In this document: piece by piece, positions 1-33,904 of the stretch | Layout: each line of letters begins with the position of its first letter | How positions within the stretch are numbered: position 1 is the first letter of the stretch | Assembly (NCBI GenBank): GCA_032718475.1 | Contig: JAUCBJ010004023.1 | Span: 1 to 53,333, forward strand | Reading direction: 5' to 3' | DNA: 53,333 nt | Origin: Nemertoderma westbladi | Taxonomy: Eukaryota > Animalia > Xenacoelomorpha | Notes under the pieces: generated by a model | What the model was told of the DNA's origin: nothing | What the model saw: the letters and a program-made list of their open reading frames with translations, nothing else | The model's database searches: none | Translations under genes and position numbers: made by a program

Positions 1-171
1 CTTGTGCAGAAATATCGTAACGAACTGGAATTTCTACGCAGCGCTACCCCTCAACAAAGAACTTATTTTATTAACCATACCGCGAGTAACGAATTAATAC
101 GGCTCATTGTAAATACTGCATTAAATGTTCTAAAAGGTAACGTACAATTAACCCCTCATTCATTTAGAAAT

Positions 172-576
172 TTGGATTTAAAAGTTGTCTTCCAAACCAG
201 CTGTAGGCTATCCTCCCTTTTCCCGTACAAGGATCAGATTCCTGAACACATACGGTCGGGTGTTGTGTACCATTATAATTGTGGAAGCTGCGATGCTTCT
301 TACATTGGACGCACTATACGCCACCTGGCTAAACGTGTTGAGGAACACACTGGCTTTTTGTACAACTCCGGAAAATTCTCCCGTCCAAAAAATTCTTCTA
401 TCTTTGAACACTCCTCCACCGCCGATCATCCCACGTTAAAAGAAAATTTCAGCATCTTATCAACATCCCGTAACTTGCGCGAACTTCTAAAGAGACTTAA
501 AGAGACTTTATTCATTAGGAAACTTCGCCCCACTTTAAATGACCAAACAACTTCGACTTTCCTTTCCCTACTGTAG
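172..576 (+). CDS. Penelope-type GIY-YIG endonuclease domain, fused in frame to the Polinton ORF (ORF 4..576)
   Basis: FPYKD..SGVVYHYNCGSCDASYIGRTIRHLAKRVEEH..SSIFEH..ENFSIL..ETLFIRKLRPTLN, the typical Penelope C-terminal endonuclease pattern. Confidence 0.85.
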   Translation: MDLKVVFQTSCRLSSLFPYKDQIPEHIRSGVVYHYNCGSCDASYIGRTIRHLAKRVEEHTGFLYNSGKFSRPKNSSIFEHSSTADHPTLKENFSILSTSRNLRELLKRLKETLFIRKLRPTLNDQTTSTFLSLL

Positions 577-887
577 TTCCTTGATATACCCCCCCCCCCC
601 CCCCCCCCCCCCCCGCCCCTACCTCACGTACTGCCTTATTCGTGTACCGGTAGGTCCGACTTTCTTACTGGACTGTCTTATACTATCCGCTCTGTTGTTT
701 CCTGTAGTACTGTACTGCTGTACACGCCTTCCATATTCAATTACAACCTTTTTTTGCACACTAGCCACACCCATTATTTTGTAAATTGTTTTTTTTTTGT
801 ATTGTTATTTCAATCTTCACCAGCCTTATTATTGTATTTTGTATTTAGTACTGTCTTTCACTAATTTTCAGGTATTTATTTGTTTTT

Positions 888-928
888 GCTTTGAAAATGA
901 TTATTGTTTAATAAATCGAAACGTCAGC
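888..928 (+). ncRNA. Degenerate minimal hammerhead ribozyme motif of the Penelope pLTR
   Basis: GCT-TTGAAAA-T-GATTATT gttt AATAAATC-GAAAC-GTC-AGC. Stems and GAAAC/GTC are present, but CTGANGA is degenerate (TTGAAAA). Confidence 0.5.
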
Positions 929-1240
929 TGTTTTTTAGAATCTTTATTTCTCAAATCATGAAGTTTAAGATATTTGCGCTGTTTATTGTTGCCTTAATAA
1001 GCTTCAGGTTCCCAGCAACTCAAACTCTATCATTTAGAAATATTCGCCGCTATAAGAAGGTATTGAAATCACTCAACCGTAAAACAAAAAATATATCAAG
1101 TTACAGAAAAAAGTTAAGCAATCAATCTGGAGGCATACTACCATTTCTAATACCCTTACTTGGCATTGGTGCGAAACTCGTGCCGGTGCCGCTGCCGCTG
1201 GAGCGGCTATTGCGAAAAAAATTAACCGAGGACGGTAATA

Positions 1241-1411
1241 ATGGTTAAAACAGGAGTAACATTTAGAAAATTATATTTAGTATCGAGTAAACCGTTAGCT
1301 GCTGATTTAAAACCACAAGATATACCTAGAGTAAATACTACAAAAAGAAAACCCTTCAAAACATCAACTTCAAAGAAAATAATTAAAAAATTTCAGTTGT
1401 TCTTACGGTGA
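1241..1411 (+). CDS. Small basic Polinton ORF (56 aa), possibly truncated
   Basis: ATG 2 nt after the pX-like stop; MVKTGVTFRKLYLVSSKP...; Lys-rich; fills the gap before the integrase. Confidence 0.35.
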   Translation: MVKTGVTFRKLYLVSSKPLAADLKPQDIPRVNTTKRKPFKTSTSKKIIKKFQLFLR

Positions 1412-1462: not shown

Positions 1463-2551
1463 ATGCCTCGCAAGATGAAACCGATTTTAAGCCGAAGCTT
1501 AGACAAAAAACTGTTAAGAATTTATTTAGATCCATCATCCCCCGCGGGTTTTGCAAGTGTTGCAAAATTAGCAAAAGCGGCAAACATCAAACCAGCCCAA
1601 GCCAAGAAATGGTTGAGCGGGCAAAAGACATACACCCTTCACGCTCCACGTAGACATCATTATCCAACATCTAAAATATTTACGGGGGGTTTAAAAGATA
1701 TATATATGATAGATTTGGTGGATATGCAGCAATATAAATCGCAAAATAATAATTATAACTATATATTAATATGTATTGATGCCTTTAGCAGGCTTGCTTT
1801 TGGCTATGGTATGAAAACAAAAAAGGGTGTTGAAATTATTAGTATATTGCAAAAAATATTCCAGAAAGGAAAACCAAACAGAATCGCGACTGATCAAGGG
1901 TCTGAGTTTCTAAATAAATCTGTAGGATAATATTTAGATACGTTAGGTATACAGTATTACGTAATGTATTCTGTGAATAAGGCGGCTATTGTCGAGAGAT
2001 TCAATAGAACATTAAAAACAAAGATGTTCAAAATTTTTACACAACGAGGAAATAATGTTTGGATTAAAATTTTACCTAAGCTTATCTCGGCTTATAATAG
2101 GTCATATCATAGGACAATAAAAATGACACCTATTGAAGTTAATAAATTTAATGAAACTGAATTAATGAATAGATTATATGGGAAATATAGACAGATTAAT
2201 CATAAGAAAATAAAATTTAAAGTTGGAGATACAGTACGATTATCTATCGCTCGTACTGCTTTTGCTAAAGGCTATCGTGAACAATGGACACGTGAATTAT
2301 TTATTATTCATCGTGTCAGGTTGGATAGAGTACCTGCTGTAATGTTCGATATTAAGGACAGCGCTGGAGCTATAATAAAGGGCTCATTTTATTCTCACGA
2401 ACTCCAAAAGGTCCACCCGAATAGTAATATTTATCTAGCAATTGATAAAAATATTGGCAAACTTAAAGAACGTGTACGCAATGGAAAGAAAGAATATTTA
2501 GTCCGATTCATCGGATCCAAGAAACAGTCGTGGGTACAGCATATTCAATAA
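1463..2551 (+). pseudogene. Polinton retroviral-like (rve) integrase with one in-frame nonsense codon and a C-terminal chromo-like segment
   Basis: IDLVDM, CIDAFSR, TDQGSEF, KAAIVERFNRTLK, YNRSYHRTIKMTP, FAKGYREQWTRELF, EYLVRF..SWV. ORFs 1463..1930 and 1964..2551 share a frame and are separated by TAA 1928-1930. Confidence 0.93.
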
Positions 2552-2812: not shown

Positions 2813-3685
2813 ATGGCCACAGATACATATATCACTCTACTTTCAGATAGCTCATTAAACACTTACCCCAATAATAATCCTAGCGAGTTTACTGTTGATT
2901 TAGCCGAAGAATTATATATTGGTCCAAACGCTAAAATTGGGCTTGCCGAGCTTCAATACCAAGCAACATACAGTAATATTACGCTGCAAACTCAAATCTC
3001 ACTGTCAATCGGGGTAGATGCAAAAGATGCCAAATTATATAGTTTATTTCCTGGTATGCATAACTCTATTCAAGTCATTATTGATGATATAAATAAACTG
3101 TTTAATTCTGAAGCGAAATATAGAGATTTCGAATTCATTTTTAATACAAATAATTCTAGAATTAAATTTAAATTTCCTAAAAAGTTGAAAAAAATACAAT
3201 TAAGTCTACGTGGTGATTTAATACAAATTCTAGGCTTAAAACCGTTATTGGATCGGAATCATCCGGATATTCCGAATTGGGATATATACAGTACCACTAC
3301 AGTAGATGAATTAAGCAATATAGAACAGCCGATATTAATTTTAAATTATAGCGGACCAAAAATTTCGGAAATTGGCATTTTAGATTTTCCAGCTCCCACG
3401 AATATAACACGTAATAAAGACACTATCTTTATATATACAGATATTATTAAGAGCTCATTTGTTGGTGACGCTTTAGCTCCGCTCTTAAGAACCTGCCCTT
3501 TAACGCAATTAAATCGAAAATATATTAATCACGAATACGAGAGCATTTGCTATTACCCGTTGTTGAATAAAAAACTAAAAACAATCTTAATTACTTTACG
3601 TGACGGACAAGGCGAATTAATTAATTTTAGCGGAGGTCGCACTGTTATAACACTTAAGTTAATACGGGGTGGCAGTGATGGATGA
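2813..3685 (+). CDS. Minor capsid protein (penton) 1
   Basis: YITLLSDSS..YPNNNPSEFTVDL..IGLAELQY at the N-terminus; IFIYTDII..VGDALAPLLR..YYPL..ITLRDGQGELINF..TVITL at the C-terminus. Confidence 0.85.
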   Translation: MATDTYITLLSDSSLNTYPNNNPSEFTVDLAEELYIGPNAKIGLAELQYQATYSNITLQTQISLSIGVDAKDAKLYSLFPGMHNSIQVIIDDINKLFNSEAKYRDFEFIFNTNNSRIKFKFPKKLKKIQLSLRGDLIQILGLKPLLDRNHPDIPNWDIYSTTTVDELSNIEQPILILNYSGPKISEIGILDFPAPTNITRNKDTIFIYTDIIKSSFVGDALAPLLRTCPLTQLNRKYINHEYESICYYPLLNKKLKTILITLRDGQGELINFSGGRTVITLKLIRGGSDG

Positions 3686-4523
3686 ATTCTACGTAAGACT
3701 ACCAAGTAACTCCTGTCCAATTGATTTTCCCCGCAATAGCGCTAGTAATTATCAGATCAATTTCCATGGCGCCTTACCTATAAACCCAAACGAAAACTGG
3801 GTGGTAGGTATAAAAAGTATATTTTACTTAGCAACGTTGCCGTCCATGTATAACAATGTAGAGAATGTTATTTTATTAAAAAAAGGAAAAAAAAATTTTG
3901 AGGATACACTTCCATCCGGTTTGTTCTACAGTATCAATGACATTATAGATTATTTTAACACGGGGGCGTTGAAAGATAAATTACAAATAGTTGAAAATAC
4001 TCAGCAAAATAGGTTGCAATTTATTTTAGGGAAAACTGTGCGAGAGTTATTTATAGGTCAACAATTAGCCTATTATTTTGGAATTACTGAAAATAATCTC
4101 GGCGCGAATTTAAATCCAAATTTTAAAATTATTTTGAAGACGAAAAATAACATAAAGGGTTATATAATAAAGGTTATCGGAAATGGAGAAAAAGCTTACC
4201 AGATGGTATTGTTATGCCCTCAACCACCCAATTCTATTCCAGAACCTAAGTCGAACATGTACGTGACTACTAATATAATTGAAAATCAATATATTAATGA
4301 CTTTGGTTTAGCTTTACTTCGTCGTGTTGCGATACCTGATGACGTGAAATATGGTAGCGTAATAAATAAAGAATTTGTCAAGGATACAATTCATTATATC
4401 CCTGTAAAAAAATCATATAAGATAACATACATTCATATTGAAATAACAGACAAAGAAGGAAAAGATTTGAATTTTGAATACGGGACAACATCTATTACAT
4501 TACACTTTAAACGAATAAATTAA
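3678..4523 (+). CDS. Minor capsid protein (penton) 2, divergent paralog
   Basis: FYVRLPSNS..FPRNSASNY..WVVGIKSIFY; MYVTTNIIE..LALLRRV..HYIPV..IHIEITDKEGKDLNF..TSITLHFKR. The ATG overlaps the end of penton 1. Confidence 0.85.
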   Translation: MDEFYVRLPSNSCPIDFPRNSASNYQINFHGALPINPNENWVVGIKSIFYLATLPSMYNNVENVILLKKGKKNFEDTLPSGLFYSINDIIDYFNTGALKDKLQIVENTQQNRLQFILGKTVRELFIGQQLAYYFGITENNLGANLNPNFKIILKTKNNIKGYIIKVIGNGEKAYQMVLLCPQPPNSIPEPKSNMYVTTNIIENQYINDFGLALLRRVAIPDDVKYGSVINKEFVKDTIHYIPVKKSYKITYIHIEITDKEGKDLNFEYGTTSITLHFKRIN

Positions 4524-4524: not shown

Positions 4525-5086
4525 ATGGATTCTGATTTATTTCAAAGATACAGTAAACCTCAATATGGTGGTGCAGACTCGAATCTTGCTGTTTTTAAAG
4601 GTGGAAGAAGTACCAGAGGGTCGATGCAAGTTCCTGTTTTTCGAGGTGGTTCATATATTGACCCTTACGGTCAACAAATTGGCACATTTGGTTGAAACTT
4701 AAAACAACGTCGTTTTCAGCGTTATCGTAGAGGTATGCGGGCAAATCAACACGGAGAAGGTATATTTACAGACGCTTTATCGACATTGAAAAAATTTGGT
4801 AAGCCATTAGCTAAAAAAGTTTTACAGAAAGCTTTACCATTTACCACAAAATTTATGAGACAACACGTAATACCAAAAGGTAAGCGGGTCTTACATCAGC
4901 AGGCTAATACGGTTATTAATAAAGCATTAAATAAAATGAAACCGTCAACAAGGTCAGTTGTAGAAAAAGTTTATAGAGATTTAAAGCGACCCGCTAGACC
5001 AATGTCTATGAACATACATCATCGACGTAGTAAAAAGAGAAATATAAAAGGCAAACTGAAACACTGCGGAAAAAAGTATTTTTTAA
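4525..5086 (+). pseudogene. Arg/Lys-rich core protein (pVII-like) with putative protease sites; in-frame TGA and a 3' frameshift into the MCP frame
   Basis: MDSDLFQRYSKPQYGG..VFKGG..VFRGG..*(4693-4695)..QHGEGIF..KKFGKPLAKK. The probable original end, EKSIF**, lies in another frame (TAA 5084-5086). Confidence 0.65.
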
Positions 5087-5088
5087 TA

Positions 5089-6348
5089 ATGTCAATTATT
5101 AAGGAATTAGATTTATTTTCTACACAGCCAATACAGACTGAATTTAAAGCAAAGCATTATGAAACAATTTACCCCGTATCTAATCTCAGAAGTGAGTCTA
5201 GAGAAGTCACGTTCCTTGTACCGAGATCCAATGAATTCTATACGAAACTGCAAGATGCGTTATTAATTACAAAATGTACTGTACGATGGGATAGACGACT
5301 TGAAAACTCCCATATATATATGCTGAATTACCCCGCTGAAACTATGTGGAGTGATATTAAAATAGACCTTAATGAGAAGCAGGTTGAAAATAGCAATAAC
5401 CATTATTTCTACAAGTCGTACTTATCCAATTTATTATTTACAACTTACGAGGATAAAAATGGGCTACTGGGTGCGGGTGGCTTTCATCAACCTTTATCTG
5501 AGCACGGAAATGAAATTGATCCCGGCGCGCATCCTATTGGCGATGCCTTTAGTAAACAAATGCAATTTGTAAGTGGATTGACGATTGATTTTGATACTGA
5601 AAGCAAAATAATACAACCCGGGTATGATTTAAGAATGCATTTTAGAAAAGTATCAAATTTGTTTATTTTTAAAATCACTCCAAACGCAAACGCGGTGACA
5701 AATCTTCGGCTAGAATTAGATGAAATAAAGATTCTAATCCCTAGAATGGAGGTTAATCCTGTAATAGAAAGCAGTCACCTAAAAGGTTTAGAGAGTTACG
5801 ATATTGAATATCAATTTCAAAAAAAGGAGGTTACAACATTTACTATTCCCGCTCAAACCACAAATTACACCCAAACAAACATATTTGATGGTAAAAAACC
5901 CAAATTAGTTATTATTGGCTTCATAACAAATAACGCTTATTCGGGAGAATTAATTAGCAATCCCTTGAAATTTGAACATTTTAACCTTAGACGCGCGGAA
6001 CTGATTGTAGACGGTCTTCCAGTAGGTGGTGTAATATACGAGCCTAATTTTACAGATGGAACATATATTTTTGAGTATACTCAATTAATGAAGAACATTA
6101 ATACATATATTAACGGTTATGGAGGTAATAATATAGACCATGAAACCTACTTAGGTAATTGCCCCATCCTATCCAGGGACTTAACTGCCGATGGCTATGT
6201 TAGAGATCCGCAACCGTCGATATATACTAATGGCCAATTAAAATTAAGATTTGCTGAACCGTTGGTTGAAACCATAAATGTAATCGTTTTTAATATTTAT
6301 GATCAATCATTAAGTTTAAATAGCAGGAAAGAAATACATATCGATTAA
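5089..6348 (+). CDS. Major capsid protein (double jelly-roll, hexon-like)
   Basis: MSIIKELDLFSTQPIQT, YETIYPVS, YFYKSYLSNLL, NIFDGKKPKLVIIGF, NPLKFEHFNL, DLTADG, LRFAEPL..TINVIV. Located between penton/core genes and the protease. Confidence 0.9.
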   Translation: MSIIKELDLFSTQPIQTEFKAKHYETIYPVSNLRSESREVTFLVPRSNEFYTKLQDALLITKCTVRWDRRLENSHIYMLNYPAETMWSDIKIDLNEKQVENSNNHYFYKSYLSNLLFTTYEDKNGLLGAGGFHQPLSEHGNEIDPGAHPIGDAFSKQMQFVSGLTIDFDTESKIIQPGYDLRMHFRKVSNLFIFKITPNANAVTNLRLELDEIKILIPRMEVNPVIESSHLKGLESYDIEYQFQKKEVTTFTIPAQTTNYTQTNIFDGKKPKLVIIGFITNNAYSGELISNPLKFEHFNLRRAELIVDGLPVGGVIYEPNFTDGTYIFEYTQLMKNINTYINGYGGNNIDHETYLGNCPILSRDLTADGYVRDPQPSIYTNGQLKLRFAEPLVETINVIVFNIYDQSLSLNSRKEIHID

Positions 6349-6350: not shown

Positions 6351-6806
6351 ATGTTATCTACAGAGGACCTTGATATGTTTCCAGTGGGTGGTCACTATTT
6401 GGGTGCGTTTCCAGCTAATAAATTACCTAAATTAGATAATAATAATAAGCGAAGAGACTATGGCTTAATAGTAAATACCGATAAAGAGCATCTGCCTGGG
6501 ATTCATTGGATCGCAATATATATACGAGATAATGAGGCTGAATTATTTGACTCGTTTGGACCAAAATATCCAAACAGATGCATCGAAAAATGGCTTGAGA
6601 AAAATTCCGCAAGATGGCGTACTACTCGCAAACAATTTCAAGACCCTAGGAGGACCACATGCGGACTATACTGTCTCTAATATTTGGTAAATCGAATTCA
6701 CACAAATTATCCAATGAGTGCATTTACAAATAATGTGGAAATAAATGAAATAATATTATATAAATGGCTTGTTAATTATTATAAAATAAACCAACAAGCG
6801 TTGTAA
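6351..6806 (+). pseudogene. Adenain-like cysteine protease with a premature TAA at 6678-6680
   Basis: GAFPANKLP, IVNTD..PGIHWIAIY, LFDSFG, Q..TTCGLYCL. The frame stays open after the stop (YLVNR..FTNNVEINE) to TAA 6804-6806. Confidence 0.88.
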
Positions 6807-6837: not shown

Positions 6838-7440
6838 ATGGATAATATTATTTTTGTTGATTTTCAATATTATAAGATAGACAATAAAGAGTATCCGGTA
6901 GTATTTAAAGAATTTGCTATATTCGATTCTAATTACACCAAAACTAATGTAAAGACGTTTTTAATTAAAGGCCCACCTAATATTAAGTTATCAGCATTAG
7001 ATGCAGCCCACGTAAACAATTTACGGGATATGACTTCTCACTTGCCCTAGGACTACGGTGACATTTCCCAAGATGAGTTTAAAAATTATATGAAGAGACA
7101 TTTAAAATATAAAAAAAACATTCATGTATTTGGGTTGCTGAAGCGGGCAATATTAGTTTCCCAACTCGATGTTCTCGCGTCAAATTCGGTGGAGAGATTG
7201 GGAATATATAAGCAATATCACGATTATTTAACCCCCTGTCGCTTTCACGATCAATTTATTCCACTAGAAAATAAATGTGCGTTCCACTTAAACATAAAGG
7301 ATAACTGTCTGCGGTATTGCTCAGCAAAACGCATTGGGGGGTATGAGATGCTACACTTTTTCATGAGAAAGCGTTTAACTGCGACTGATGATGATAAACA
7401 GAAAGATATAACTGCGGTGGAAGATGTACTCACACTGTAG
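6838..7440 (+). pseudogene. Conserved Maverick-type small protein, possibly DEDD/RNase H-like fold; in-frame TAG at 7048-7050
   Basis: IIFVDFQ..VFKEFAIF..TFLIKGPP..HLP*DYGDI..IHVFG..K..C.FH..CAFH..CS. The two ORFs share a frame, and the TAG is probably a former TGG. Confidence 0.6.
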
Positions 7441-8090
7441 GTTTAACAGCGGTGGAAGATGTACTCTTACAGTAGGTTTACTCTAAGCTTGTAATGTGAT
7501 GGGATAATATATTTGTTTTAATGTCAATAAAAAATAATAAAAACATTAAAATCTTTTTTTATATCGCTGTTTACACTCACAAACACACCACACCTATCGG
7601 TATCAGAGTTTAACTACCAGTAGCTAGCCGACTTTACACATACAGACATATAGAATGGTGGAATGGGGCCCTTCTAGACTGTCAGCAACCACAAGGTTTT
7701 AGCGTTGTTACTTACTAAATTAACTCAACATGGAGGGTTTGTGAATGCGGCATTAGAGAGGCCCACCTAACAATAGGCCTACTGGTACCAACGGCCCTGT
7801 ATACCAGTACTTGAGGATAGAGCAAGAGCATACCGGACTGTCGGTTTCTTTGATTTAAGGATTACACTATTACACTTGAATGCTTCCAATTTTCTGTTTA
7901 CAACTTTAATTGGTCTAATCTACATTACTGCGGGCGGGCGGGCTACTACTGTCGCATAGGTAAGCCTATACAGCTATAGTTAACTTTATGCGGGGCCCTT
8001 TTTCGAATGTTGACCAAATATGGTTTATGGTTAACCTTTAGTACTCGCGGATAGGTAAGGTACACTTTCATTCGGTTAGGCATATAGGCC

Positions 8091-8430
8091 TAATGACTAC
8101 TCCTCAACTGATAGTTGACTAGCTCATTGATACAATAGGTGTGGTTAGGTACCGGTAGGGCTATAGGTCCTATAAAATCCCCCTCACACTCTCTGTTACT
8201 AACTTTCTACATTCACTCTTGAGCGCCATCATTCAACCAGTCATATAATGACTCCACTCGGATACAATAGGTGTGGCTCTCGGTATACCTAACTAAGCCT
8301 ATATAAAATCCACCCCATTCTCTGTTACTAACATTCACTCTATGTTGACGGGGGGGGGGGGGGGGGGGACTATATAAAACATAGTTAATTTATTTATGTA
8401 TTCGCTTTTTTTTTTTAATTATATATAAAA
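8091..8430 (+). promoter_or_regulatory. Duplicated promoter-like unit and cluster of four TATA boxes
   Basis: Two copies of TAATGACT..GATACAATAGGTGTGG..CCTATA(TA)AAATCC..CTCTGTTACTAAC..CATTCACTCT. TATA boxes at 8171, 8300, 8371 and 8422. Confidence 0.5.
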
Positions 8431-8514: not shown

Positions 8515-8955
8515 TTACTGTATTATACTTTTTATAGTCCTATAATGTGGGTCCCTCTGTAGAGTTTCCTCCATTGCCGGTACCTGTAAATGGTTGTTTA
8601 TAGGCCGGCTAACTTCTACCGGTCTTTGTGTTGGTATATTGAAGTGAAGCGTGTCATCAACATCATTCTCCCAATTTTCGCTAGAGGGTGAGCTTCCCGA
8701 TATTCGCAATGGTTGTATCTTTATAACAAGCGAGAAATCTTTTGAAATTTCAACCGTTGTAGGCGATAAAGGTAGACCATCTACTTGACCTACTCCATAT
8801 TCTATCGAAGTAAACCCGATCTCAAATTTTTTGTTTATATATCGCAACTCCATCTCAGCAATATTGGATGCTGCGAGATATGTTTCGTCGCTTGATTGCA
8901 ATTCGATTTTGATACAACTCTTCAACTCACGGTTATTGAAAAAGGCGAATGTCAT
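8515..8955 (-). CDS. Hypothetical Polinton protein (146 aa)
   Basis: Open ATG-started ORF co-oriented with the PolB block; TATA-like sequence about 140 bp upstream; no recognised motif. Confidence 0.55.
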   Translation of the reverse strand: MTFAFFNNRELKSCIKIELQSSDETYLAASNIAEMELRYINKKFEIGFTSIEYGVGQVDGLPLSPTTVEISKDFSLVIKIQPLRISGSSPSSENWENDVDDTLHFNIPTQRPVEVSRPINNHLQVPAMEETLQRDPHYRTIKSIIQ

Positions 8956-9639
8956 GTTCGAGTTGAGGTAAGTTGTCGTCGTCGTCGTAACTAGGTACCG
9001 GAAAGAGTATCTTTAAATTGAATAGGTAGGCCTACTGATATTTTTTTCTTCTTTTGTTTAACAAAATTATAGTTCACTGTCAGAAAAATTGAGTTTATAT
9101 ATATTTTTGTAGAGGGTCGCAGATGTGTACATTACAAAATTCTCATAGTTAACAAAATGCACAACATAAACCTTTCCCATGCGGATTAGCGATATATGCT
9201 CTGGTCGTTGTTCTATTCTGAATGTAGGGAGATGCATAGCCGATGTTTAAATGATATGTACCGGTATACAGACTAGTAACAGATAGGAGGGCATCGTCTT
9301 TGACTATGAATACCAGCACATAGCCCTAATCTTTTCTCACCGAGCTTAGCGTTGCCCACCGCACTCTCGCACACTCATAAGTAACAGATGCGCTATTGTA
9401 ACTCACTCGTGAGCAACAATGCCAAGTTAGCTAGCTAGCTAGCTACAGCCTCTGAGTATACTATGCCTACTTGAGTGTTACAAGCAACAATCGCTCTATC
9501 GAAGTTAATTTCCTCTCAAACTAGTTGTTGATTTTAAAAAAATATTCATAATTTTTTTCCAACCAATTTAATATATATATATATTTTAGTAAAAATCTCC
9601 ACCACCAAACAGCAACAACAACAATAAATTTCACTCACA

Positions 9640-10218
9640 CTAATTATATTTTACAACAAAAACCCTCGCACCAAACAATAATAAATTATTAACCAGTTTG
9701 TTGAATATAGGGCAATATTTATGAAATTTAAACGGGGAACACATTAATGTACATTTACCGGTGTAGAAGCAGCAAACAACAACATTATTATTTATTCTGA
9801 CTTTACAGTTATTGAATATTTCAGGTTCATATATAACTTGAAGTTGCACATTATCAAAGACAACATAAAACCCTGTATTGTTTGTCAATAACCTATAGAC
9901 TACAGACTTAATACTAAAAATATAAGTACATAAATTAACAGATTTTAAAATCAAATTAATACTAGTTTTATCAAATATATGCTTTTTTACTTTTTGGAAA
10001 TTATACTTACTGCCTAATAATGTAATACGACCATTTTTAAATATTAATAATGTGGCACCAAATATCTTATATATAAACTGATTTGGTTTGAGTATGTGTT
10101 TACCAGATAATTGATTTTTTAATTCTTTAAAATTAATCGCTAACACTTGCCGGCAACTTATATTTTTATTTACTATTTGATAATTCATCATCAATACCAT
10201 CGTCTTTTGGTTCTTCAT
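9640..10218 (-). CDS. TATA-binding protein (TBP)-like protein; probable start near 10188
   Basis: Two-repeat TBP pattern: YQIVN..INFKEL..ATLLIFKNGRITLLGSK and SVN..YEPEIF..VVVCCFYTGKCTL, compared with TBP TALIFSSGKMVCTGAK and YEPELF..LLIFVSGKVVL. About 180 aa, the size of the TBP core. Confidence 0.82.
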   Translation of the reverse strand: MKNQKTMVLMMNYQIVNKNISCRQVLAINFKELKNQLSGKHILKPNQFIYKIFGATLLIFKNGRITLLGSKYNFQKVKKHIFDKTSINLILKSVNLCTYIFSIKSVVYRLLTNNTGFYVVFDNVQLQVIYEPEIFNNCKVRINNNVVVCCFYTGKCTLMCSPFKFHKYCPIFNKLVNNLLLFGARVFVVKYN

Positions 10219-13200
10219 AAATTGGTATATTTGATATTTTTATAGGTTTTTTGAGGTTTGTTTTATAGTGCCCCCAAGGAAGCGAATGATTTTTATTAAC
10301 CCAATAAAGTTTATCGTCAAAGCTACTGAGTGCAAATTTATTTTGCTTTAAGGTATAAATACGATGTAATTTAGATTGAAATCTGTGTATGTTTTTTTTT
10401 ATTTCTTCATTTGAGTTATAGGCTTTTAAATATTCTTCATGTGTAATATTCGTTTCCACAACAGCTCTTGTAATACCTTTTGCTCTATGAATATTTTTGT
10501 TATTCCATTCCAAAATTGAATATAATTTTGGTCTTAAAAATACTGCTTGTTTAATTTCACGTGAGGCTAGTTCGTCTTTACAGTAATAGAGTTGGGATTT
10601 ATTTTTATCGCTGTAGAGAGGGTAATTGGAAGTATCTAAAATATTATTTTTAATTAATGCTTTTAAAAAATTATTCTGCGATGTATTATAATAACAACCT
10701 ATCAAAGAGTCAGTGTCTGATGCAGCAATTTCAATACGACAGTTTAATTCTTTCTCAATAGGTAGCAATTTATTGTAAAACAGCTCATACATATCCAATT
10801 TAGCCAAGTCCAACACAGCGCTACCAATAAATATAGGCTTATCGAGAGTTACAGAGTCTTTCACTAATAAATGTCCCGATAATGTATTATTGTATATTAT
10901 AAATTGTTCATGATTAATACGATTTACCAATTGATTGCATTTATCGTTGCTATTTGCGATACGAAAGTTACATCGATATCTTAACTTTTCTATTGATTTT
11001 CCAAACAGCGAATTATTGAGCAATTTCGCGACAGCAGTTTCAATGTAACTTTTTGCTAGGCGCCTTTGATTAATATTAAAATCTATGTAATTTTTAAATA
11101 CAAATTCTTGTTGAAAAGAATATAATTTATGGAGCTTAGTAACAATTAATCCATGTTTTATATAAAATTTTAACAGTTTCAAATGTAAATGATAAAACTC
11201 TTTATCAAATTGCGTCAGCAAGAGTTTTGGTGTAGACATCCTATATTTACGGGAGGTACCTCTTTGTATCGATAAATTATTAAATTGTTCCCGCATATAA
11301 GGCGAAAGCATTGTTTCATTTATACTTAAATGCTCTGGGGCTAACGGTAATTGTAATGTTTGATCGTGAATAGCCTTGGGATAATTTAAATCACATATTA
11401 AAAAATATCCAGTAGATTCGTCATTGTCTAAATCTACCAAGTACTCGATTAGTTTTTCTGGAATTGCATTCTCTAAATGTTTAATACTTACTTCTTTGAA
11501 TTGCGAGGTGGGTAGTTTTTTACTTAAATTCCCAGAATATAAAGAGTTGAAATCAATATTAAAAATATGGCATTCTTCCTTAGTAGAATCATATGTACTT
11601 GTTCCAGGTATATTTGATTCTATATAATGCTTTCGACAAAATGAAACACCACCCCTAATTGATTTTTCAAAATCTCTATATGTTTGATAATCCTTTATTA
11701 ATTCTATTTTACATTTATTATATTTTAGCGCGCAATCATAGGTAAATGACGCAATACTACAGTAAAAAACTACTTCTAAATCGTAATTTTGTTTACAAAC
11801 ATTCCTAAAATTCTCAAATATATCAGCAAGCAAACAAACATCGAGTTTTAAATAGGCTAAAAGATAATCTTTGAGATTCACACAGTCGAATTCTACCCAT
11901 GATAATCCTGCAAACCTATAATCTTCAATTGTGCATGTTTTTTGTGTTAAGTTACTAAAAAAATTATTTATAGACGGCAAACCAGTATCATTAAATTTAT
12001 TAATATCTGTCAAGTACTCGTATGGAAATACTCCTTTCCGTTTAATTGTTGAGTTATTCAAGTTTGGATAAAAATATTTCATTTCTTGTAGAGTAATAGG
12101 TAAAATTGAGCTTATATCATGACTCGCTACATCCTTTGTTGAACACTCAACTAAATTACTTAGGGAAAAGCTTAAAAATTGATATGTGTCTAAGAAACGT
12201 AACTCAATTTAATTGTGTTTTTAATTGGGATAAACGCACTCAGTGAAATATATCGTTCTGTATTTCTCGGTATAACCTTTATATCCCAATCGGTGTATTT
12301 CTTATCTCTAAACCCGGTTTGTAATATACAATGTATATCGTAATTACTGGAATTGTGCCCGCAAAGTACATACAGGTATCGTTTCAATGATAAACTTCGG
12401 TTACAACTATTACAGGCTGCTGCAATATATTTACCTGTAATATGTGAATGATGTCTGTTTTTCCCAACATTATTATTTAAAGTAACATTACAATAGAAAC
12501 AAAATTTTGCCTGTTCAAAATTTACAAAATCATTATTAGTAAATGACATAGTTTTATGAGTGTATATGTCTGACCAACAACATAATTCAGTTAAATCAAA
12601 ATATAATGAATCTAAAAAATCTTGAATACAATTATTATTATTATTTGACTTTACGAATGTTTTCAAATGACATTTTGGGGGGTTAATTAATTCAGTATTG
12701 GGAACAATTAAATAACTCGCAGCACACGGTATATGCTCCTGTATAAATTGATTATTAACTGAAGGTTGTAAGATACATTCTATATCAAAGTAGGTGACAA
12801 ACAATGGGGATAAGGTTCTATCTAAATTTGTAAAACTAATGTGTGTTCTTTTTTTATTAGGTAGTTTCTCTTGTTGACTTCTTCCTTGGTAGCATGCAAG
12901 ACGGTGTCGTTGGAGAACTTCCGATTGAAAAAAATGAGCCAAATACCTTTCACAATATTTCCTATTCCCGATATGAAGAGCTCTCGTATTCAGCAATCGA
13001 TTCAAGTTAGTTATGCAAACATAATGATTCGGTTTAGGTACATTGTTATTTTTTACTACAAGTAATATATTTAATAACTCTTTATTGGGTGTAATTTTAC
13101 TAAACGGTGGTTGTCTTAATATAGATACGGGGGCGCATTTGTTGTCGTTATTCCAACATAGTAAATTAATTATATATTTTGAATTTTGTTTTTCAAAAAG

Positions 13201-14211
13201 TTTAATCGCTAACAGCCACTCTGTTGGATAATCTTTGTTCCCGTTGTCAAAAATGAAATGAGTCATATAATTTTTGTACGATGAAGTACGGTTTTTATTG
13301 CTTTTCACTTTGCTACCAAATTTTGCGGATATAATTGCCCATTTAAAACAGTCATTATCAGCCGATTGTACATTTATAACACATCGTTTACTCGATAGAA
13401 CCTTAGGTAATTCCATATATCCATGCCCCTTATATAGTAACGACCTACACTTAGATTCAGCTAATTTAATTTCAACCCTTAATAAAGATTTAATACGCCA
13501 TCCCGAACCACGTGTGTTAAAGATGGCTACTTTTTGTAATATATTTTCCACAACATACTCAAACCATGTGTCAAAACTTTGTGGCGAATCTACAGTATTA
13601 ATAGCACCACCGGAAGAATTAAAATAAAAGGTTTCCAATTGCTCGCCTTCTGAAAAATGTGATCTGTACATTAATACATTTAGACCTAACCACAGTCTAA
13701 GAACATTCATTTCTTTCAATCTATCTAATATTAACTGAAGAATATTACCTCGAATTTGTGCTAATACTGTTTCTACATCGGGATAATCTCTAGAAGTTGG
13801 GAGGTCGTGGACATAAATTTCAAGACGATTATCGTGAGCTTCTTGTTCCCGCGTAAAAATTGTTGCGCATGTACCAAGAGCCAGCCTTAAGTTTTTTCTG
13901 GATATTATATTTTTATGTTGCGGAAATTTACGCTTTCTTGTGTAGTAACATTTCAAGTGACAGTCGTGTCGTATATAATTCTCATATGTATACTCTTTAT
14001 TACAGGTAGAACAAGTCAATTGATAGGTGCGGAACTCCATTTCTTTACAACCAGTAGTCGATTCATGTCGTTTACAAATTTCGCTGCATGAAGTCACAAC
14101 ATGACACTTAAAACAAGAATAACTTTCAAAATGTGACCGTAGGTGGCGTAAGTAATTATGTCTAGTTACATTCATATGACAGAATGAACAACATATTGTT
14201 ATTTTATCCAT
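10166..14211 (-). pseudogene. Protein-primed family B DNA polymerase (pPolB) with one frameshift near 12205-12225
   Basis: RGSGW, DNDCFKWAI, YFDIEC, CFYC..HHSHITGKYIAAACNSCN, HNSSNYD, then in the shifted frame LRFLDTYQFL, RKGVFPYEY, SIRGG, IDFNSLYS, KLLNNSLFGK, SDTDS, LRPKLYS, AKGI. Confidence 0.95.
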
Positions 14212-15851: not shown

Positions 15852-16458
15852 TTAAAAACATTCAGTTATATATAAATTTGTGATGGGGCATAGTCAACGA
15901 AGAAGAGATGGGACGTGTCATAATCATCGACGAATAAGAAAAGAGATGGGTGCAACGTGGTTGAATGGTTGGTTGGTTACGTGGATAGGAAATATGTGAA
16001 AGAATATGAATCATAGGGTTGTGTGTAATAATAATCAATAATTATTATAAAAACGCACAGTATAATGTTAGTAGTAGTAGCCTCTTTCAATATGGCACAG
16101 ATGCTGCGGGATCGGTTAGCTTGAGTAACTACTTGGAAATGTTCGTATACGTGTAGCTGGAACGTGGCGGAATTTCATGCACATGTATCATACTGAGTGG
16201 TTGGTTTGTTGGTTTGGCGACAGCAGTTGAGTAGCTCTATCAACGGAGGGACGTAAATCGTTGAGTTGGCAATCAATATAATATACTCTAATATAACGAC
16301 TTGGTATATGCATCGTGTAGATGGCCACGTTATCGTTTTAGTCACCATATACAGTATGTGGAGGTGGTAGCGTGGCGAAAAGGGGAATAATCGGAGGGTG
16401 TATCGCTGTTGGTTGGTTGGTGAGTGGGTGGGTTGGGGGCTAGCCATGCGTCGAGAAG

Positions 16459-17193
16459 TTAGGCTACGCGAAGATGAATATGCAATGGATGGTTGTTGCA
16501 GCAATGATACGAATCAATACTATCGGTTGGTAGGTAGGTAACAGCTGCCATTGAGTAAGGTGGGCAACGCGAGTTTAGGCTACGCGTAGGTGAATACGCT
16601 ACGATTGGTTGATGGTAACTACCTCGATGGTGACAGATGTAGGCAATTAAACGCCGTAATTTAGCATCGGAATTTGGCATTTTTAATAGTCCTCCGAGAT
16701 GTAGCCCATAGCCCAAGCTAGGGAGGAGTATGTCGAGGTCACCTCTTTTCCTACTACTATCATCAAGATACAACACATTGAATATGGAGCTAATGGATTG
16801 TGCCATCTCAATGGTAGTGTCGCCAAGTAGGGGTGGGCCTTCAGGATCCCCTTGCTGAATTCCTTCCTCTGAAAGAAGGATACGTTTCCCATGGATGATG
16901 TAGCTTGGCTCCCCGTAGGCAGCAAGCGTGTAGTCATAGATCTCAGGTAGTCGTTCGTAGACAATCTCTAGCATCGAATCCCTACGGACAGCATTAAAGT
17001 CAATACTGAAGTCTACCTTGAGTAGCACTGAACCTGGTAAGTTGGATGTGGCAATCATGGTGCGGGTTGCGTGTGCTGCAACGGCTGTATGCAACGGGAC
17101 CAGCTCACCACCTACCCCAAATATATCGACCAAATCAATGCATTGCAGCATTGCAGCTTGTCGCTCTTTTTGAAGCGAGATAATCTTTAGCAA
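16459..17193 (-). pseudogene. Non-LTR reverse transcriptase fragment, CRE-like (RT homology about 16760-17100)
   Basis: LLKVDFSIDFNAVRRD, AYGEPS, SEEGIQQGDPEGP, YLDD; similarity is lost after YLDD. Confidence 0.8.
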
Positions 17194-17254
17194 GATTGGT
17201 GGGAGAAATGATTTGTGATGTATCCTTCTTGACAGGGGTTATAATTTGACAGGA

Positions 17255-18770: not shown

Positions 18771-19400
18771 GTGAATTCAAAGAAAACTAAAATAGTAAAA
18801 TTTGGAATGGGTAGCCGACTATCCCATCTGGATAACGTTACTTATGCGGGTCAATCAGTTGAAATACAAAACGAATATAATTATTTAGGTGTAATACTTC
18901 AACAATCTTTGTGCTTTTCTAAACATATTAAAAATAAAAAGTGTCAGTCGTACAAGTTAATTGGGTCTTTAAAACAGTTACCATTATTATCAATTGAAAC
19001 ATGTATGAAAATATTTTCTGGTAAAATTGAACCTTTAAATATTTGAAAAAATTGAACCTTTATTCTCGTTACATACTTTTGCGAAATAGTTAACATTGGA
19101 AAATGTAAAAGATATAGATAAGATTAAGTCGGTATTTATTAAGAAAATGTTGGGTTTACATAGTTCTACTTCCTCTACGCTAGCTTATAATATAATAGGT
19201 GAAAAAACATATTGGAATTATTTTAATTCGACATCCAAATATTTTTGATCCAAATCTATTACAGAACATAATAAGATTTGGGGAAGAACGAAATCAAAAT
19301 TTCATAACCATAGTTACCTCAATGGGCCAGCTTTCCAATCCTCTACATGGAGATTATCAAATCAAAGAAATCGACATTATTCTCACTAGGACTACCTCGC
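18771..19400 (+). mobile_element. 3' fragment of a LINE ORF2 (post-RT region), frameshifted
   Basis: NSKKTKIVKF..VEIQNEYNYLGVIL..FSKHI, then FIKKMLGL-like and TR..HGFH-like segments. Confidence 0.75.
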
Positions 19401-20132
19401 ACGGCTTTCATTCTCACTAGGACTACCTCGCACGGCTTTCATTCTCACTATGACTACCTCGCACGGCTTTCATTCTCACTATGACTACCTCGCACGGCTT
19501 TCATTCTCACTATGACTACCTCGCACGGCTTTCATTCTCACTATGACTACCTCGCACGGCTTTCATTCTCACATGGACTACCTCGCACGGCTTTCATTCT
19601 CACTATGACTACCTCGCACGGCTTTCATTCTCACTATGACTACCTCGCACGGCTTTCATTCTCACTATGACTACCTCGCACGGCTTTCATTCTCACTATG
19701 ACTACCTCGCACGGCTTTCATTCTCACATGGACTACCTCGCACGGCTTTCATTCTCACTAGGACTACCTCGCACGGCTTTCATTCTCACTAGGACTACCT
19801 CGCACGGCTTTCATTCTCACTATGACTACCTCGCACGGCTTTCATTCTCACTAGGACTACCTCGCACGGCTTTCATTCTCACTATGACTACCTCGCACGG
19901 CTTTCATTCTCACTAGGACTACCTCGCACGGCTTTCATTCTCACTATGACTACCTCGCACGGCTTTCATTCTCACTAGGACTACCTCGCACTGCTTTCAT
20001 TCTCACTATGACTACCTCGCACGGCTTTCATTCTCACATGGACTACCTCGCACGGCTTTCATTCTCACTAGGACTACCTCGCACGGCTTTCATTCTCACT
20101 AGGACTACCTCGCACGGCTTTCATTCTCACTA
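19379..20132 (+). repeat. 31-bp minisatellite, about 24 copies
   Basis: ACTACCTCGCACGGCTTTCATTCTCA(CTAGG/CTATG/CATGG); unit starts at 19391 and 19422. Confidence 0.97.
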
Positions 20133-21200
20133 CCATTGTCCCAAATCCCCGGCATCATCATTTTTAGCAACATGCTCTTGAATTATTTACAGTAGGTCTA
20201 GTTAATGTTTCATATTCTATCAATTCAATTCACTAATTACAGTCTTTATTCCTTGTCTGGAATTCGTGATTTTCTTTTTGATTGGTCAAAAATTGTGCGA
20301 CTATTTCCTATTTTCATTTTACCCCGGTTGGGGGTGCTAATTGGAGACAGGGGGGAAACTGGACCAAAACCCGCCTTGGCGAAGTAATATCCCGCCTCAA
20401 TGTTAAATTCTCAATTTATGGAAAGGAGCAGGTTACAGTGGCACGTTATTTTAACCAAAACAATAAACTACACACAATAGAACAGGTTACAGTTTTATTT
20501 TGAGAGTAATCAGCTGTTATTTGCGTCGAATTTCCCCTGGAGAGGGATGCATTTTTATTGCGTCCAGTTTCCCCCCTATCTGGCTAATTGATTAATACAA
20601 TATATTTTTATTACGCAATAATTTTTCTTGTCCGTTTAAATCCTTTTTTTGTCCTTTTTTTTTTACTTTTTATGTCCTTTTTTTTTACTTTTTATGTCCT
20701 TTTTTTTTACTTTTTATGTCCTCCACAAATCTACCGTTGGGTTCCTTGCTACCGGTTTCTCAACTGCTGTTCTCTTAGGCTATAAGTACCGGTATTAGTA
20801 TATATAGAGCACTATTTTGCAGTATTGCATTGTATGTTGGTATAAACTAAAGCATATGCCTTAGAAATAATTATACTGTCTGACTGTATTATACTACATT
20901 ACAGCATTAGGTATTGACTCACTGATTCTGTGATATGTACAGTTGTAAATATGATAGGCCTAATTGCTGAATTGTGATAAGTCCATAGTATAAGTCATTT
21001 TGTTTTATTCACTGTTCAACTTTCTCCTGTTTTATTATGTGCAGTTTTATTTATACGCTTCTATGACAGCGGTGTCTCCACCCACATAATATAATAATAA
21101 TAATGGTAAAGGTAATTTATTAATTACGGTAATTTCAGAATTTTAGTACGGGTGCCGGTCTTACATAGTTTATTGTTATGTTCATGACATTTATTGTTTA

Positions 21201-21800
21201 TTTATTGTTTTGGTTAGAAAATCCTGCCTCTGTAACATGCTCCTTTCCCTAATTTGGTAAAGTGGCCGTTTATTGTTTTGGTTAGAAAGGCCCGCCTCTG
21301 TAACCTGCTCCTTTCCCTGATTTGGTAAAGTGACTGTTTATTGTTTTGGTTAGAAAATCTCGCCTCTGTAACCTGCTCCTTTCTTTCAATTGGTAATGTT
21401 ATCGTTTATTGTTTTGGTTAGAAAATTCCTTCTCTGTAACCTGCTCCTTTCCCTGATTTGGTAAAGTGACTGTTTATTGTTTTGGTTAGAAAATCCCGCC
21501 TCTTTAACCCGCTCCTTTCCCTCAATTAGTTGAATGATCCTTTATTGTTTTGGTCAGAAAGGCCCGCCTCTGTAACCTGCTCCTTTCCCTGATTTGGTAA
21601 AGTGACTGTTTATTGTTTTGGTTAGAAAATCCCGCCTCTATAACCCGCTCCTTTCCCTCAATTAGTTGAATGATCGTTTATTATTTTGGTTAGAAAGGCC
21701 CGCCTCTGTAACCTGCTCCTTTCCTTCATTTGGTAAAGTGACTGTTTATTGTTTTGGTTAGAAAATCCGGCCTTAACCTGCTCCTTTCCATCAATTGGTA
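21201..21800 (+). repeat. 68-bp tandem repeat, about 9 copies
   Basis: TTTATTGTTTTGGTTAGAAAATCCCGCCTCTGTAACCTGCTCCTTT.. at about 21201, 21269, 21337 and so on to 21745. Confidence 0.95.
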
Positions 21801-25293: not shown

Positions 25294-25782
25294 TGACTTC
25301 GAAATGTCCGAGGGGCCTATATGTCTTGAACTTTGTTAATAGTTTATATGTTATTATTCTTACAGTATTATACAAATTAAAAGGTACACCATTATTTGTA
25401 AAGCAACAACAGCCTCCACTCAATCGCTAAAAATATACAATCACAGTCTTCCGAGATCTTTAGCCAATATACAGTATCATCTTAAAAGGATCAAATTAAC
25501 TTACTCGAATCAATCTATAGTGGATATAACCAACGAATGAAAGGAATCTATAATTTCCATTTCCACTATCGAATATTTATTTTATCACATAAGAAAATTG
25601 AGATTGCTGTATTATTTTGTGAAGTTTATATTGTCTAGACGATCATTGTTTAAATGCTGCAGGATATGTAGCTTGGGATACATAGAGGTTAAGCATCGTC
25701 TCTTTCTCTTACCACCAGTAATAAGCAAAGCAACCAGTCGACCGAGGCCGGAGGCGACCCGAAGGCTCCTCTTTCGATATCT

Positions 25783-26490: not shown

Positions 26491-26550
26491 TTTCCCAAGT
26501 TTTCCTCCCAGTAATTCAACTGGTCCTCATTTTAGTGGATGAAAGACGAG

Positions 26551-26617
26551 GGGCCCTGGCGGGACTCGAACCTACAACCAATAGATTGCAGGCCCGGCGC
26601 TCAACCAACTGAGCTAC
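26551..26617 (-). pseudogene. tRNA-like SINE head with Pol III A and B boxes
   Basis: GTAGCTCAGTTGG (A box), CTGCAAT loop, GGTTCGAGTCC (B box). The anticodon stem is poorly paired and the 5' acceptor strand is missing. Confidence 0.75.
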
Positions 26618-33700: not shown

Positions 33701-33904
33701 AACATGTTAATAGATAGAGTTTAAAATGAAATTAACAGTAGGCCTATGGCAATATAATATCATTAGAGAATGTGGCAATCAATTAACCAGCGTAACGGTC
33801 GTGACATAGTTTCGTAACGGTTGTGACATTATCGATTTTCACATAAATCTGAATTTCAAAAAATGGTAAGGTATTAATTAGAGTTAGGTATTGATACCGA
33901 TTTC

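What the first reader, a model, noticed from the sequence alone, without database searches (positions are those of the whole stretch)
9640..10218. A Polinton/Maverick that encodes its own TBP-like protein
Seen: an intact intronless ORF overlapping the PolB stop, with both TBP repeats, the two DNA-contacting Asn positions (IVN, SVN) and Phe at three of the four intercalating positions (LLIF, YEPEIF, CCF); the fourth (PNQF) is uncertain. Known: TBP homologs occur in large DNA viruses but are not part of the canonical Polinton gene set. Inference: a captured, strongly diverged TBP that redirects host Pol II to element promoters or acts as a decoy.
Basis: partly seen in the sequence, partly recalled or inferred. 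Interest (0 to 1): 0.88.

Follow-up and report, generated by a model that had tools for sequence, protein, structure and literature searches.

The report
Polinton's own rewired TATA-binding protein
A virus-like Polinton element in a probably animal genome carries its own altered TATA-binding protein, and related elements with this gene show non-standard boxes instead of ordinary TATA boxes before their capsid and packaging genes, so the protein likely serves as a private switch for those late genes.

Summary
Confirmed: 9640-10218(-) is an intact 192-aa TBP homologue (Pfam TBP 32.7 bits, cut-off 22.9; predicted TBP saddle, Z 13.4). It lies between pPolB and the capsid module of a decayed, multi-copy Polinton. 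Copies keep the frame and favour silent changes. Similar short TBPs form a family (124 hits); four more sit in Polinton contigs. Two residue calls are wrong: the second Asn position is Ser105, not 'SVN', and the first intercalating Phe is lost in all 87 aligned proteins. The TFIIB-binding E-x-E loop is kept, unlike in many viral TBPs. Canonical TATA boxes precede 7 of 54 genes in 4 TBP-bearing elements (5.2 expected) against 148 of 315 in 27 loci without a detected TBP (37 expected). Two TBP-bearing relatives carry TTAAGC or CATAAAC before late genes. No motif reached significance in this window. Best reading: an altered-specificity late-promoter factor that recruits host TFIIB/Pol II (0.6, untested). 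Prior art: a figure label 'TBP' in one MELD-virus paper; this scan noted Polinton TBPs 28 times in at least 3 other genomes.

The parts
9640..10218 (-). TBP-like gene, 192 aa from the first ATG; in-frame ATGs at 10200, 10191 and 10188, the last matching where relatives start
   Evidence: Pfam TBP above cut-off; TBP fold predicted; ATG positions; family start column
9814..9831 (-). YEPEIF stirrup of the C-terminal lobe: E131 and E133 at the TFIIB-contact positions, F135 the third intercalating Phe
   Evidence: Glu in 85 and 86 of 87 aligned proteins; role of the two glutamates from PMC7221094
10084..10089 (-). K44-P45, standing where canonical TBP has the first intercalating Phe, in a shortened N-terminal stirrup
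   Evidence: alignment with 20 canonical TBPs
9904..9906 (-). S105, in the column of the second DNA-contact Asn
   Evidence: Ser 69, Asn 15 of 87; on strand 100-110 of the model
10238..10267 (-). Two canonical TATAAAA boxes (10261-10267, 10238-10244) inside the pPolB 3' end, upstream of the TBP gene; candidate host-TBP promoter
   Evidence: sequence; only 1 of 12 genes of this element has TATAWA within 80 nt of its ATG, against 2.4 expected, and among the upstream stretches listed the TBP gene carries it; not significant alone
10166..14211 (-). Protein-primed DNA polymerase B, split by a frameshift near 12190-12208
   Evidence: ORFs; motifs DFNSLY, KLLNNSLFG, DTDS; 904 relatives at E<=1e-20, many with PF03175
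14406..15470 (-). 354-aa ORF of unknown function upstream of pPolB
   Evidence: no Pfam, PHROG, PDB or locus match
8515..8955 (-). 146-aa ORF of unknown function downstream of the TBP gene
   Evidence: no match above cut-off
6838..7440 (+). Element ORF broken by an in-frame stop at 7048; a nuclease-like N-terminus is my recollection, not a tool result
   Evidence: no Pfam match
6351..6806 (+). Adenovirus-type maturation protease, broken by an in-frame stop at 6678
   Evidence: Peptidase_C5 E 0.002, below cut-off
4735..6348 (+). Putative major capsid protein (about 5089-6348), in frame behind a basic core-protein-like stretch
   Evidence: 26% identity over 430 columns, E 9e-47, to the matching protein of L039; the capsid label rests on size, position beside the protease and recalled Polinton layout
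2813..4523 (+). Two related ORFs (290 and 281 aa), probably minor capsid proteins
   Evidence: both hit the same set of proteins in other Polinton loci (E to 9e-21); the label is recalled
1463..2551 (+). Retroviral-type integrase, broken by an in-frame stop at 1928
   Evidence: Pfam rve 33.4 bits, cut-off 32.6
1..1248 (+). Small element gene interrupted by a retroelement fragment (about 172-1041) flanked by a 12-bp duplication; the element runs off the left end of the window
   Evidence: both halves hit small proteins of other Polinton loci; TCATTTAGAAAT at 160 and 1030

Best explanation
This is an element-encoded TBP homologue with a remodelled DNA-binding face that likely acts as the Polinton's late-gene promoter factor: it is predicted to bind non-canonical TATA-like boxes in front of capsid, packaging and integrase genes and would bring in host TFIIB and RNA polymerase II through its kept acidic stirrup. 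Shown: identity as a TBP homologue, position inside the element, residue changes, signs of purifying selection among copies, and the promoter contrast among relatives. Predicted: the saddle fold. Inferred: DNA binding, the sequence read, TFIIB recruitment, and timing (the TBP gene itself made early from ordinary TATA boxes by host TBP).
For: (1) Fold and family. (2) Kept: N17, F60, F135, F151 (83, 87, 87, 86 of 87) and E131/E133 (85, 86 of 87); PMC7221094 names these two glutamates as the TFIIB contacts. (3) Changed across the family on the DNA face: first Phe lost, second Asn mostly Ser, yeast V71 column Asn/His in 81 of 87, V122 column Arg/Gln in 85 of 87, L205 column Asn in 67 of 87 (yeast numbering from Table 1 of PMC12529657). 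KSHV ORF24, which reads TATT, shows a similar polar face. (4) Selection: 18 of 45 listed differences among copies are silent against 19-25% expected (p 0.0009-0.018), none makes a stop, and the only listed indels inside the ORF are three 1-nt insertions in the same contigs, 3 nt in sum. (5) Promoters: TATAWA within 80 nt of the ATG in 7 of 54 genes of 4 TBP-bearing elements (5.2 expected) against 148 of 315 genes of 27 loci without a detected TBP (37 expected); enriched at p<0.01 in 0 of 4 against 18 of 27, Fisher p 0.023. (6) L039 has TTAAGC before 7 of 14 genes (empirical p 0.005) and L005 has CATAAAC-type boxes before 7 of 13 (p 0.02); these include packaging ATPase, integrase and capsid-module genes and in both exclude pPolB and the TBP gene.
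Against: No motif is significant in this window's element (empirical p 0.16 and 0.52) or in L055 (0.48, 0.67). YTTAAR stands before 7 of 12 genes here against 3.1 expected (p 0.02), but the pattern was chosen after seeing the relatives. Three of the four TBP-bearing elements in the contrast belong to one pPolB clade, so it rests on about two independent lineages, and most 'TBP-less' loci are partial. This protein is far more diverged than its family: Asn136 where 81 of 87 have the Pro that follows the third Phe, Ser161 where 85 of 87 have Gly, Thr66 and Cys149 at the two polar columns, and a long branch. No binding and no expression were shown. The selection count uses only the rows the tool listed (40 of 146 and 40 of 74).
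Confidence: 0.6

Rival explanations
1. The protein is a decoy or host-shutoff factor: it ties up host TFIIB through the kept stirrup or sits unproductively on host promoters, and does not drive element genes.
For: The TFIIB glutamates are the best-kept surface. The basic residues of helix 2 used by TFIIA, Mot1/BTAF1 and TAF1 are not kept in register (roles from PMC7221094). One intercalating Phe and one Asn are lost.
Against: Three Phe and the first Asn are nearly invariant and the polar changes are themselves conserved, which suggests a maintained DNA-reading face. A decoy does not explain why TBP-bearing elements lack canonical TATA enrichment and carry other boxes.
Confidence: 0.14
2. The family is a promoter factor, but in this lineage the protein has drifted to weak or no specific DNA binding and is kept for another or a residual role.
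For: Longest branch after L055. Asn at the conserved Pro column and Ser at the conserved Gly column, with no listed variant at codon 136. No motif found in this element. No relative found by single-sequence search.
Against: Silent changes are in excess and the frame is kept among copies that differ by up to about 17%. N17, F60, E133, F135 and F151 show no listed variant, and E131 varies only to another acidic residue. This element also lacks canonical TATA enrichment (1 of 12).
Confidence: 0.14
3. The protein is a general DNA-bending protein used in replication, packaging or target choice for integration, not in transcription.
For: The gene lies directly behind or near pPolB in the window, L039 and L067, and the protein is very basic (pI 9.9).
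Against: It does not explain the kept TFIIB-contact glutamates or the promoter contrast. In L005 the gene lies next to the ATPase, 5.5 kb from pPolB.
Confidence: 0.09
4. It is a host TBP retrocopy recently picked up by this one copy and now decaying.
For: It is intronless, and the element copy around it is broken in at least five genes.
Against: Other copies link TBP and pPolB on one contig (X4 record 9844-10487, X5 record 10055-10361). It shares the lost first Phe and Ser-for-Asn with the element-type family, scores higher on that profile, and shows selection.
Confidence: 0.02

Closest known systems
TBP-labelled gene in MELD viruses with adintovirus-like PolB (Starrett et al. 2021, PMC8502044; preprint 10.1101/697771)
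   Same: A TBP-like gene in a midsize pPolB virus or related element. I saw passages, section 3.4 with the Fig. [quoted passage not shown]
   Different: It is only a label in a figure legend. The figure is not held, so I cannot say which element carries it. The main text gives no residues, distribution or function. The supplement is cut, and its slide files and Table S1 were not readable.
Cellular TBP (eukaryotic TBP/TRF, archaeal TBP; Pfam PF00352)
   Same: Two-lobed saddle, first Asn, three Phe, YEPExF stirrup.
   Different: First Phe and part of the N-terminal stirrup lost, second Asn to Ser, polar DNA face, helix-2 basic residues not in register, 14-23% identity.
Beta/gamma-herpesvirus vTBP (KSHV ORF24 and homologues; PMC12529657, passages and section 15 read)
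   Same: Virus-encoded TBP fold with a polar DNA face, reading a non-canonical TATA (TATTWAA) at late promoters with host Pol II. This is the working model here.
   Different: ORF24 is 752 aa, keeps all four Phe, lacks the TFIIB glutamates, binds Pol II itself and needs five other viral factors. This protein is a bare core of about 180 aa, has three Phe and keeps the TFIIB glutamates.
TBPs of giant DNA viruses and mirusviruses (PMC7221094 passages; PMC10132985 passages)
   Same: Virus-encoded divergent TBP; the best BFVD fold matches include such proteins.
   Different: PMC7221094 reports that viral TBPs have diverged at the TFIIB positions and pair with viral TFIIB homologues. Here the positions are kept and no TFIIB-like gene was seen among the 14 ORFs scanned. 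That paper's main text does not mention Polintons or Mavericks.
Polintons/Mavericks (adintoviruses)
   Same: pPolB, rve integrase, protease, capsid-module genes, many genomic copies.
   Different: Extra TBP gene, typical of one pPolB clade and absent from 27 of 30 long related loci.

Membership tests
TBP family (PF00352) | Score above the Pfam cut-off with two repeats | tested here: met
   32.7 bits against 22.9, two stretches
TBP family (PF00352) | Two-lobed saddle fold | tested here: met
   predicted model, pLDDT 76.6; TBP chains top both fold searches
Canonical TBP | Four intercalating Phe | tested here: not met
   three kept (F60, F135, F151); the first column holds Pro45 or Lys44
Canonical TBP | Two base-contacting Asn | tested here: not met
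   N17 kept; S105 at the second position
Canonical TBP | Two acidic stirrup residues that bind TFIIB | tested here: met
   E131 and E133; role from PMC7221094
Canonical TBP | Basic patch of the N-terminal lobe for TFIIA, TAF1, Mot1, Brf1 | tested here: inconclusive
   not kept in register, but helix 2 holds other lysines and a 4-residue insertion blurs the alignment
Canonical TBP | Binds and bends TATAWAW | not testable with these tools
   needs EMSA, SELEX or a structure
Polinton/Maverick | Protein-primed PolB | tested here: met
   broken by a frameshift in this copy
Polinton/Maverick | Retroviral-type integrase | tested here: met
   rve above cut-off; in-frame stop in this copy
Polinton/Maverick | Capsid proteins and adenovirus-type protease | tested here: met
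   homology to the matching genes of L039 and other loci; Peptidase_C5 E 0.002; capsid fold itself not predicted
Polinton/Maverick | Packaging ATPase | tested here: inconclusive
   not in the window; the element runs off the left end
Polinton/Maverick | Terminal inverted repeats and 6-bp target duplication | tested here: inconclusive
   no matching long inverted repeat among those listed; left end outside the window; no genome held
Herpesvirus vTBP (ORF24 type) | Large protein with Pol II-binding N-terminal domain, loss of TFIIB glutamates, partner activators | tested here: not met
   192 aa, glutamates kept; works-like only
Giant-virus TBP/TFIIB pair | A TFIIB homologue encoded by the same virus | tested here: inconclusive
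   none among 14 window ORFs in Pfam; the element is incomplete and two ORFs are unassigned

The most novel reading that the evidence does not exclude
A whole clade of Polintons runs the smallest known private transcription switch: a three-phenylalanine TBP that has changed its DNA code together with the element's late promoters (TTAAGC in one lineage, CATAAAC in another) while still plugging into host TFIIB. This would give 15-20 kb integrated viruses an early-to-late programme and provide natural altered-specificity TBPs.
Probability: 0.5. Interest if true: 0.85.

Novelty: new variant of a known kind. Interest (0 to 1): 0.66.

Why it matters
How Polintons time the expression of their capsid genes is, to my knowledge (recalled), open, and it bears on whether they behave as true viruses. 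A dedicated TBP with matching non-canonical promoters makes that directly testable with one small protein and short promoter fragments. TBP is among the most conserved proteins known, so natural variants that drop an intercalating Phe and an Asn yet keep the TFIIB surface would show how TATA recognition can be reprogrammed. They could also serve as orthogonal Pol II promoter systems.

Tried and rejected
Single-sequence searches with the window protein found nothing: word-index search (0 of 78 candidates), phmmer over 1.84 billion representatives (0 at E<=0.001), PDB sequences (no TBP; only myosin and one other at E>0.3), viral contigs. Relatives appeared only through pPolB neighbours and a profile. 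Folding without an alignment failed (pLDDT 37). The ESM Atlas gave no answer. No whole genome is held, so element ends and copy number were not determined. AGTAGT-type words at 16070 and (reverse) near 16126-16132 are only candidates for the right end. Expression: no RNA holder listed; run X5 is only guessed to be RNA and is not used as evidence. Summed contig depth was not used as copy number. A pattern scan of viral contigs gave 14 loci, 5 with a TBP-like ORF, none with Polinton markers; three served as canonical-type comparators. De novo motif search in this element was not significant; TACGG (5 of 13) does not survive correction. A PC4-like reading of the 354-aa ORF was my impression and got no support. 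No complex prediction was run: only an archaeal stand-in for TFIIB was on offer, and a textbook pair without DNA would not have moved the odds. The TBP tree groups all 87 element-type proteins with support of only 0.80 on long branches, next to three eukaryote-type viral TBPs (0.96). No true eukaryotic cellular TBP was in the tree, so the donor is not resolved.

Full report
1. The observation. The ORF at 9640-10218 on the minus strand is open for 192 codons and overlaps the last 53 nt of the pPolB gene. It passes the Pfam TBP cut-off (32.7 bits against 22.9, two stretches). Folded alone it gave a useless model (pLDDT 37). Folded on an 87-sequence alignment it gave pLDDT 76.6. That model's best matches are TBPs in Foldseek (E down to 4.5e-9, TM about 0.6) and in VIA-align (Z 13.4, rmsd 3.5 over 170 residues to yeast TBP; the next fold scores 7.1). 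It is a TBP homologue beyond reasonable doubt.

2. The residues. I aligned the element-type proteins with 17 archaeal TBPs and 3 eukaryote-type viral TBPs fetched, and took yeast numbering from Table 1 of PMC12529657. N17, F60, F135 and F151 match yeast N69, F116, F190 and F207. The N159 column holds S105 (Ser in 69, Asn in 15 of 87), while N95 of 'SVN' lies in the loop after helix 2. The F99 column, Phe in 20 of 20 canonical TBPs, holds Pro45 (Pro in 86 of 87), or Lys44 with a one-residue shift, inside a shortened stirrup; F48 is a core position. Other DNA-face columns are polar across the family: V71 is Asn or His in 81 of 87 (N19 here), V122 is Arg or Gln in 85 of 87 (Thr here), L205 is Asn in 67 of 87 (Cys here). 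The two stirrup glutamates that PMC7221094 identifies as TFIIB contacts (passages) are kept: E131 and E133, Glu in 85 and 86 of 87. The basic residues of the N-terminal lobe are not kept in register, although other lysines lie nearby. This protein also departs from its own family: Asn136 for a Pro kept in 81 of 87, Ser161 for a Gly kept in 85 of 87.

3. The surroundings. The gene lies between pPolB (14211-10166) and a converging block of integrase, two probable minor capsid genes, a probable major capsid gene and a protease, so it is internal to a Polinton whatever the ends are. The left end is outside the window and no genome is held. This copy is decayed: in-frame stops in the integrase (1928), the protease (6678) and a further ORF (7048), a frameshift in pPolB near 12190-12208, and a retroelement fragment with a 12-bp duplication in a small gene. 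The host is probably an animal; I infer this from the retroelements nearby and from the named pPolB relatives (coral, snail, flatworm).

4. Other copies. Five runs hold part of the stretch, four of one organism and one of another. In run X1, 1245 contigs lie on 1.2 kb, 99 of them under 90% alike, so the family has many diverged copies. Single contigs bridge TBP and pPolB in X4 (9844-10487) and X5 (10055-10361). In one search the 12 listed indels (of 37) all fall in the non-coding stretch 9436-9638. In one search, on 9660-10180, the only listed indels are three 1-nt insertions within 12 nt in the same contigs, in frame in sum. Of 45 listed substitutions in the ORF, 18 are silent (19-25% expected, p 0.0009-0.018), 23 fall on third positions and none makes a stop. 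The tables were cut to 40 of 146 and 40 of 74 rows, so this is a sample. The gene has been under purifying selection while the family spread.

5. Relatives. Direct searches with this protein found nothing. Going through pPolB gave 106 loci (78 metagenome, 28 viral). Four of the 106 hold a Pfam-positive TBP: L005, L039, L055 and L067. L005, L039 and L055 are near-complete Polintons. A profile of five proteins found 124 short TBPs, mostly 140-200 aa and without readable context. Four of these short TBPs (one a cluster member) share contig lengths with the closest pPolB cluster. In a tree of 51 pPolB sequences (50 of the 106 loci chosen by length or closeness, plus the window), the window, L005, L039 and L067 fall in one clade with support 1.0. 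Its 13 other members are contigs of 8.9 kb or less, too short to show absence. L055 lies outside. The gene is thus a clade trait with perhaps a second origin.

6. Promoters. The lead came from earlier notes of this scan, and I tested it on my own loci. For the 30 loci of at least 10 kb with 7 or more ORFs, plus the window, I counted words within 80 nt of each ATG. Canonical TATAWA is enriched at p<0.01 in 18 of 27 loci without a detected TBP and in 0 of 4 with one (Fisher p 0.023). Pooled, it stands before 148 of 315 genes (37 expected) against 7 of 54 (5.2 expected). Against the 11 TBP-less loci with at least two marker genes the fractions do not overlap (0.30-0.89 against 0.08-0.20; Mann-Whitney p 0.0015). 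With hand-picked starts, L039 has TTAAGC before 7 of 14 genes (empirical p 0.005) and L005 has CATAAAC-type boxes before 7 of 13 (p 0.02), in both cases not before pPolB or the TBP gene. The window and L055 gave no significant motif (p 0.52, 0.67). In the window YTTAAR stands before 7 of 12 genes (3.1 expected, p 0.02, pattern chosen afterwards). The TBP gene here has two TATAAAA boxes upstream, and that of L039 has one. In 13 short loci of the same clade TATAWA precedes 7 of 31 genes (1.9 expected), and in the loci printed it does so at pPolB and its neighbours, as expected if early genes use host TBP. Limits: about two independent lineages, partial loci, and ATGs used as stand-ins for transcription starts.

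7. Mechanism. Most likely (0.6) the element makes this TBP early with the host machinery. The protein then binds altered boxes before late genes and recruits host TFIIB and Pol II. It may escape TFIIA, TAF1 and Mot1-type control through its changed N-terminal lobe. The identity, the residue pattern, the selection and the promoter contrast are shown. Binding, specificity, partner and timing are inferred. Rivals: decoy of TFIIB (0.14), degenerate function in this lineage (0.14), non-transcriptional DNA bending (0.09), recent host retrocopy (0.02).

8. Against what is known. It works like the herpesvirus late factor ORF24, which reads TATTWAA with a polar face, but it is not a member of that family: ORF24 is 752 aa, keeps four Phe and lacks the TFIIB glutamates (PMC12529657). 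Giant-virus TBPs are reported to have diverged at the TFIIB sites and to pair with viral TFIIB (PMC7221094). Mirusviruses encode TBP (PMC10132985). For Polintons the only print trace I found is the Fig. 5 legend of PMC8502044 and the legends of its preprint. Eight searches on this point showed no paper on a Polinton TBP's residues, spread or promoters. Most hits were seen only as listings; passages of PMC10675990 and PMC12220804 were checked and concern other elements or a reference list. The library lacks most subscription papers and Repbase reports, and parts of the PMC8502044 supplement could not be read. This scan has 28 earlier findings of the kind in at least 3 other genomes, none in this genome and none matching this sequence. 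One note (e1-8605585) reports lost partner surfaces in its protein; here the TFIIB glutamates are kept.

9. Verdict. A real, selected TBP gene of a Polinton clade, a new variant of the known kind 'virus-encoded TBP'. Interest 0.66.

Noticed in passing
window 1-1041: A retroelement fragment with a GIY-YIG-like motif (Penelope type, label recalled) sits inside a Polinton gene, flanked by a 12-bp duplication. It happens to be in frame with the host gene's first part, giving a 191-aa fused ORF at 1-576.
   Followed up: partly
window 23581-25293 (+): An uninterrupted 570-aa SLC13-type sodium:sulfate/carboxylate symporter gene (Pfam PF00939, E 3e-76). A single-exon form may be a retrocopy or reflect an intron-poor host.
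   Followed up: partly
window 38668-45330 (+): A 2221-codon open frame with no Pfam match at E<=0.01, holding internal 300-bp repeats.
   Followed up: partly
window 52058-53332 (-) and 16462-17238 (-): An LTR-retrotransposon integrase region (DUF5641 plus Integrase_H2C2), and a fragment that looks like a non-LTR reverse transcriptase by eye but has no Pfam match.
   Followed up: partly
window 19255-20300, 21133-21880, 25670-26612, 33887-35181, 47363-50150: Several tandem arrays with units of 31, 68, 36, about 170 and about 25 bp.
   Followed up: no
window 7980-8370: The non-coding stretch between the two converging gene blocks holds two similar units, each with a TATAAAATCC-type box followed by CTCTGTTACTAAC (seen). 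They may be promoters of short unannotated transcripts.
   Followed up: no
L055:8426-8911: A second, very different Polinton TBP (Pfam 32.8 bits) in an element outside the main pPolB clade. It has a further reduced N-terminal lobe and only one stirrup glutamate, and may be an independent acquisition.
   Followed up: partly
proteins P0002/P0255-P0257 and P0182, P0258, P0162, P0190: The cluster of the closest pPolB relative and four short TBPs lie on ENA contigs of the same three lengths (45383, 28807, 33920), which suggests three more elements with both genes. The contigs themselves could not be read.
   Followed up: partly
L033:4609-6453 (-): A clade member without a detected TBP in its 8.9 kb carries CATAAAC before its protease-like gene, the same box as L005.
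   Followed up: no
L091, L092, L105, L106: Polinton-like loci without a detected TBP whose best upstream words are TAAAAA (11 of 14 genes each), CATTTT or GATTGA. Other non-canonical promoter systems may exist.
   Followed up: no
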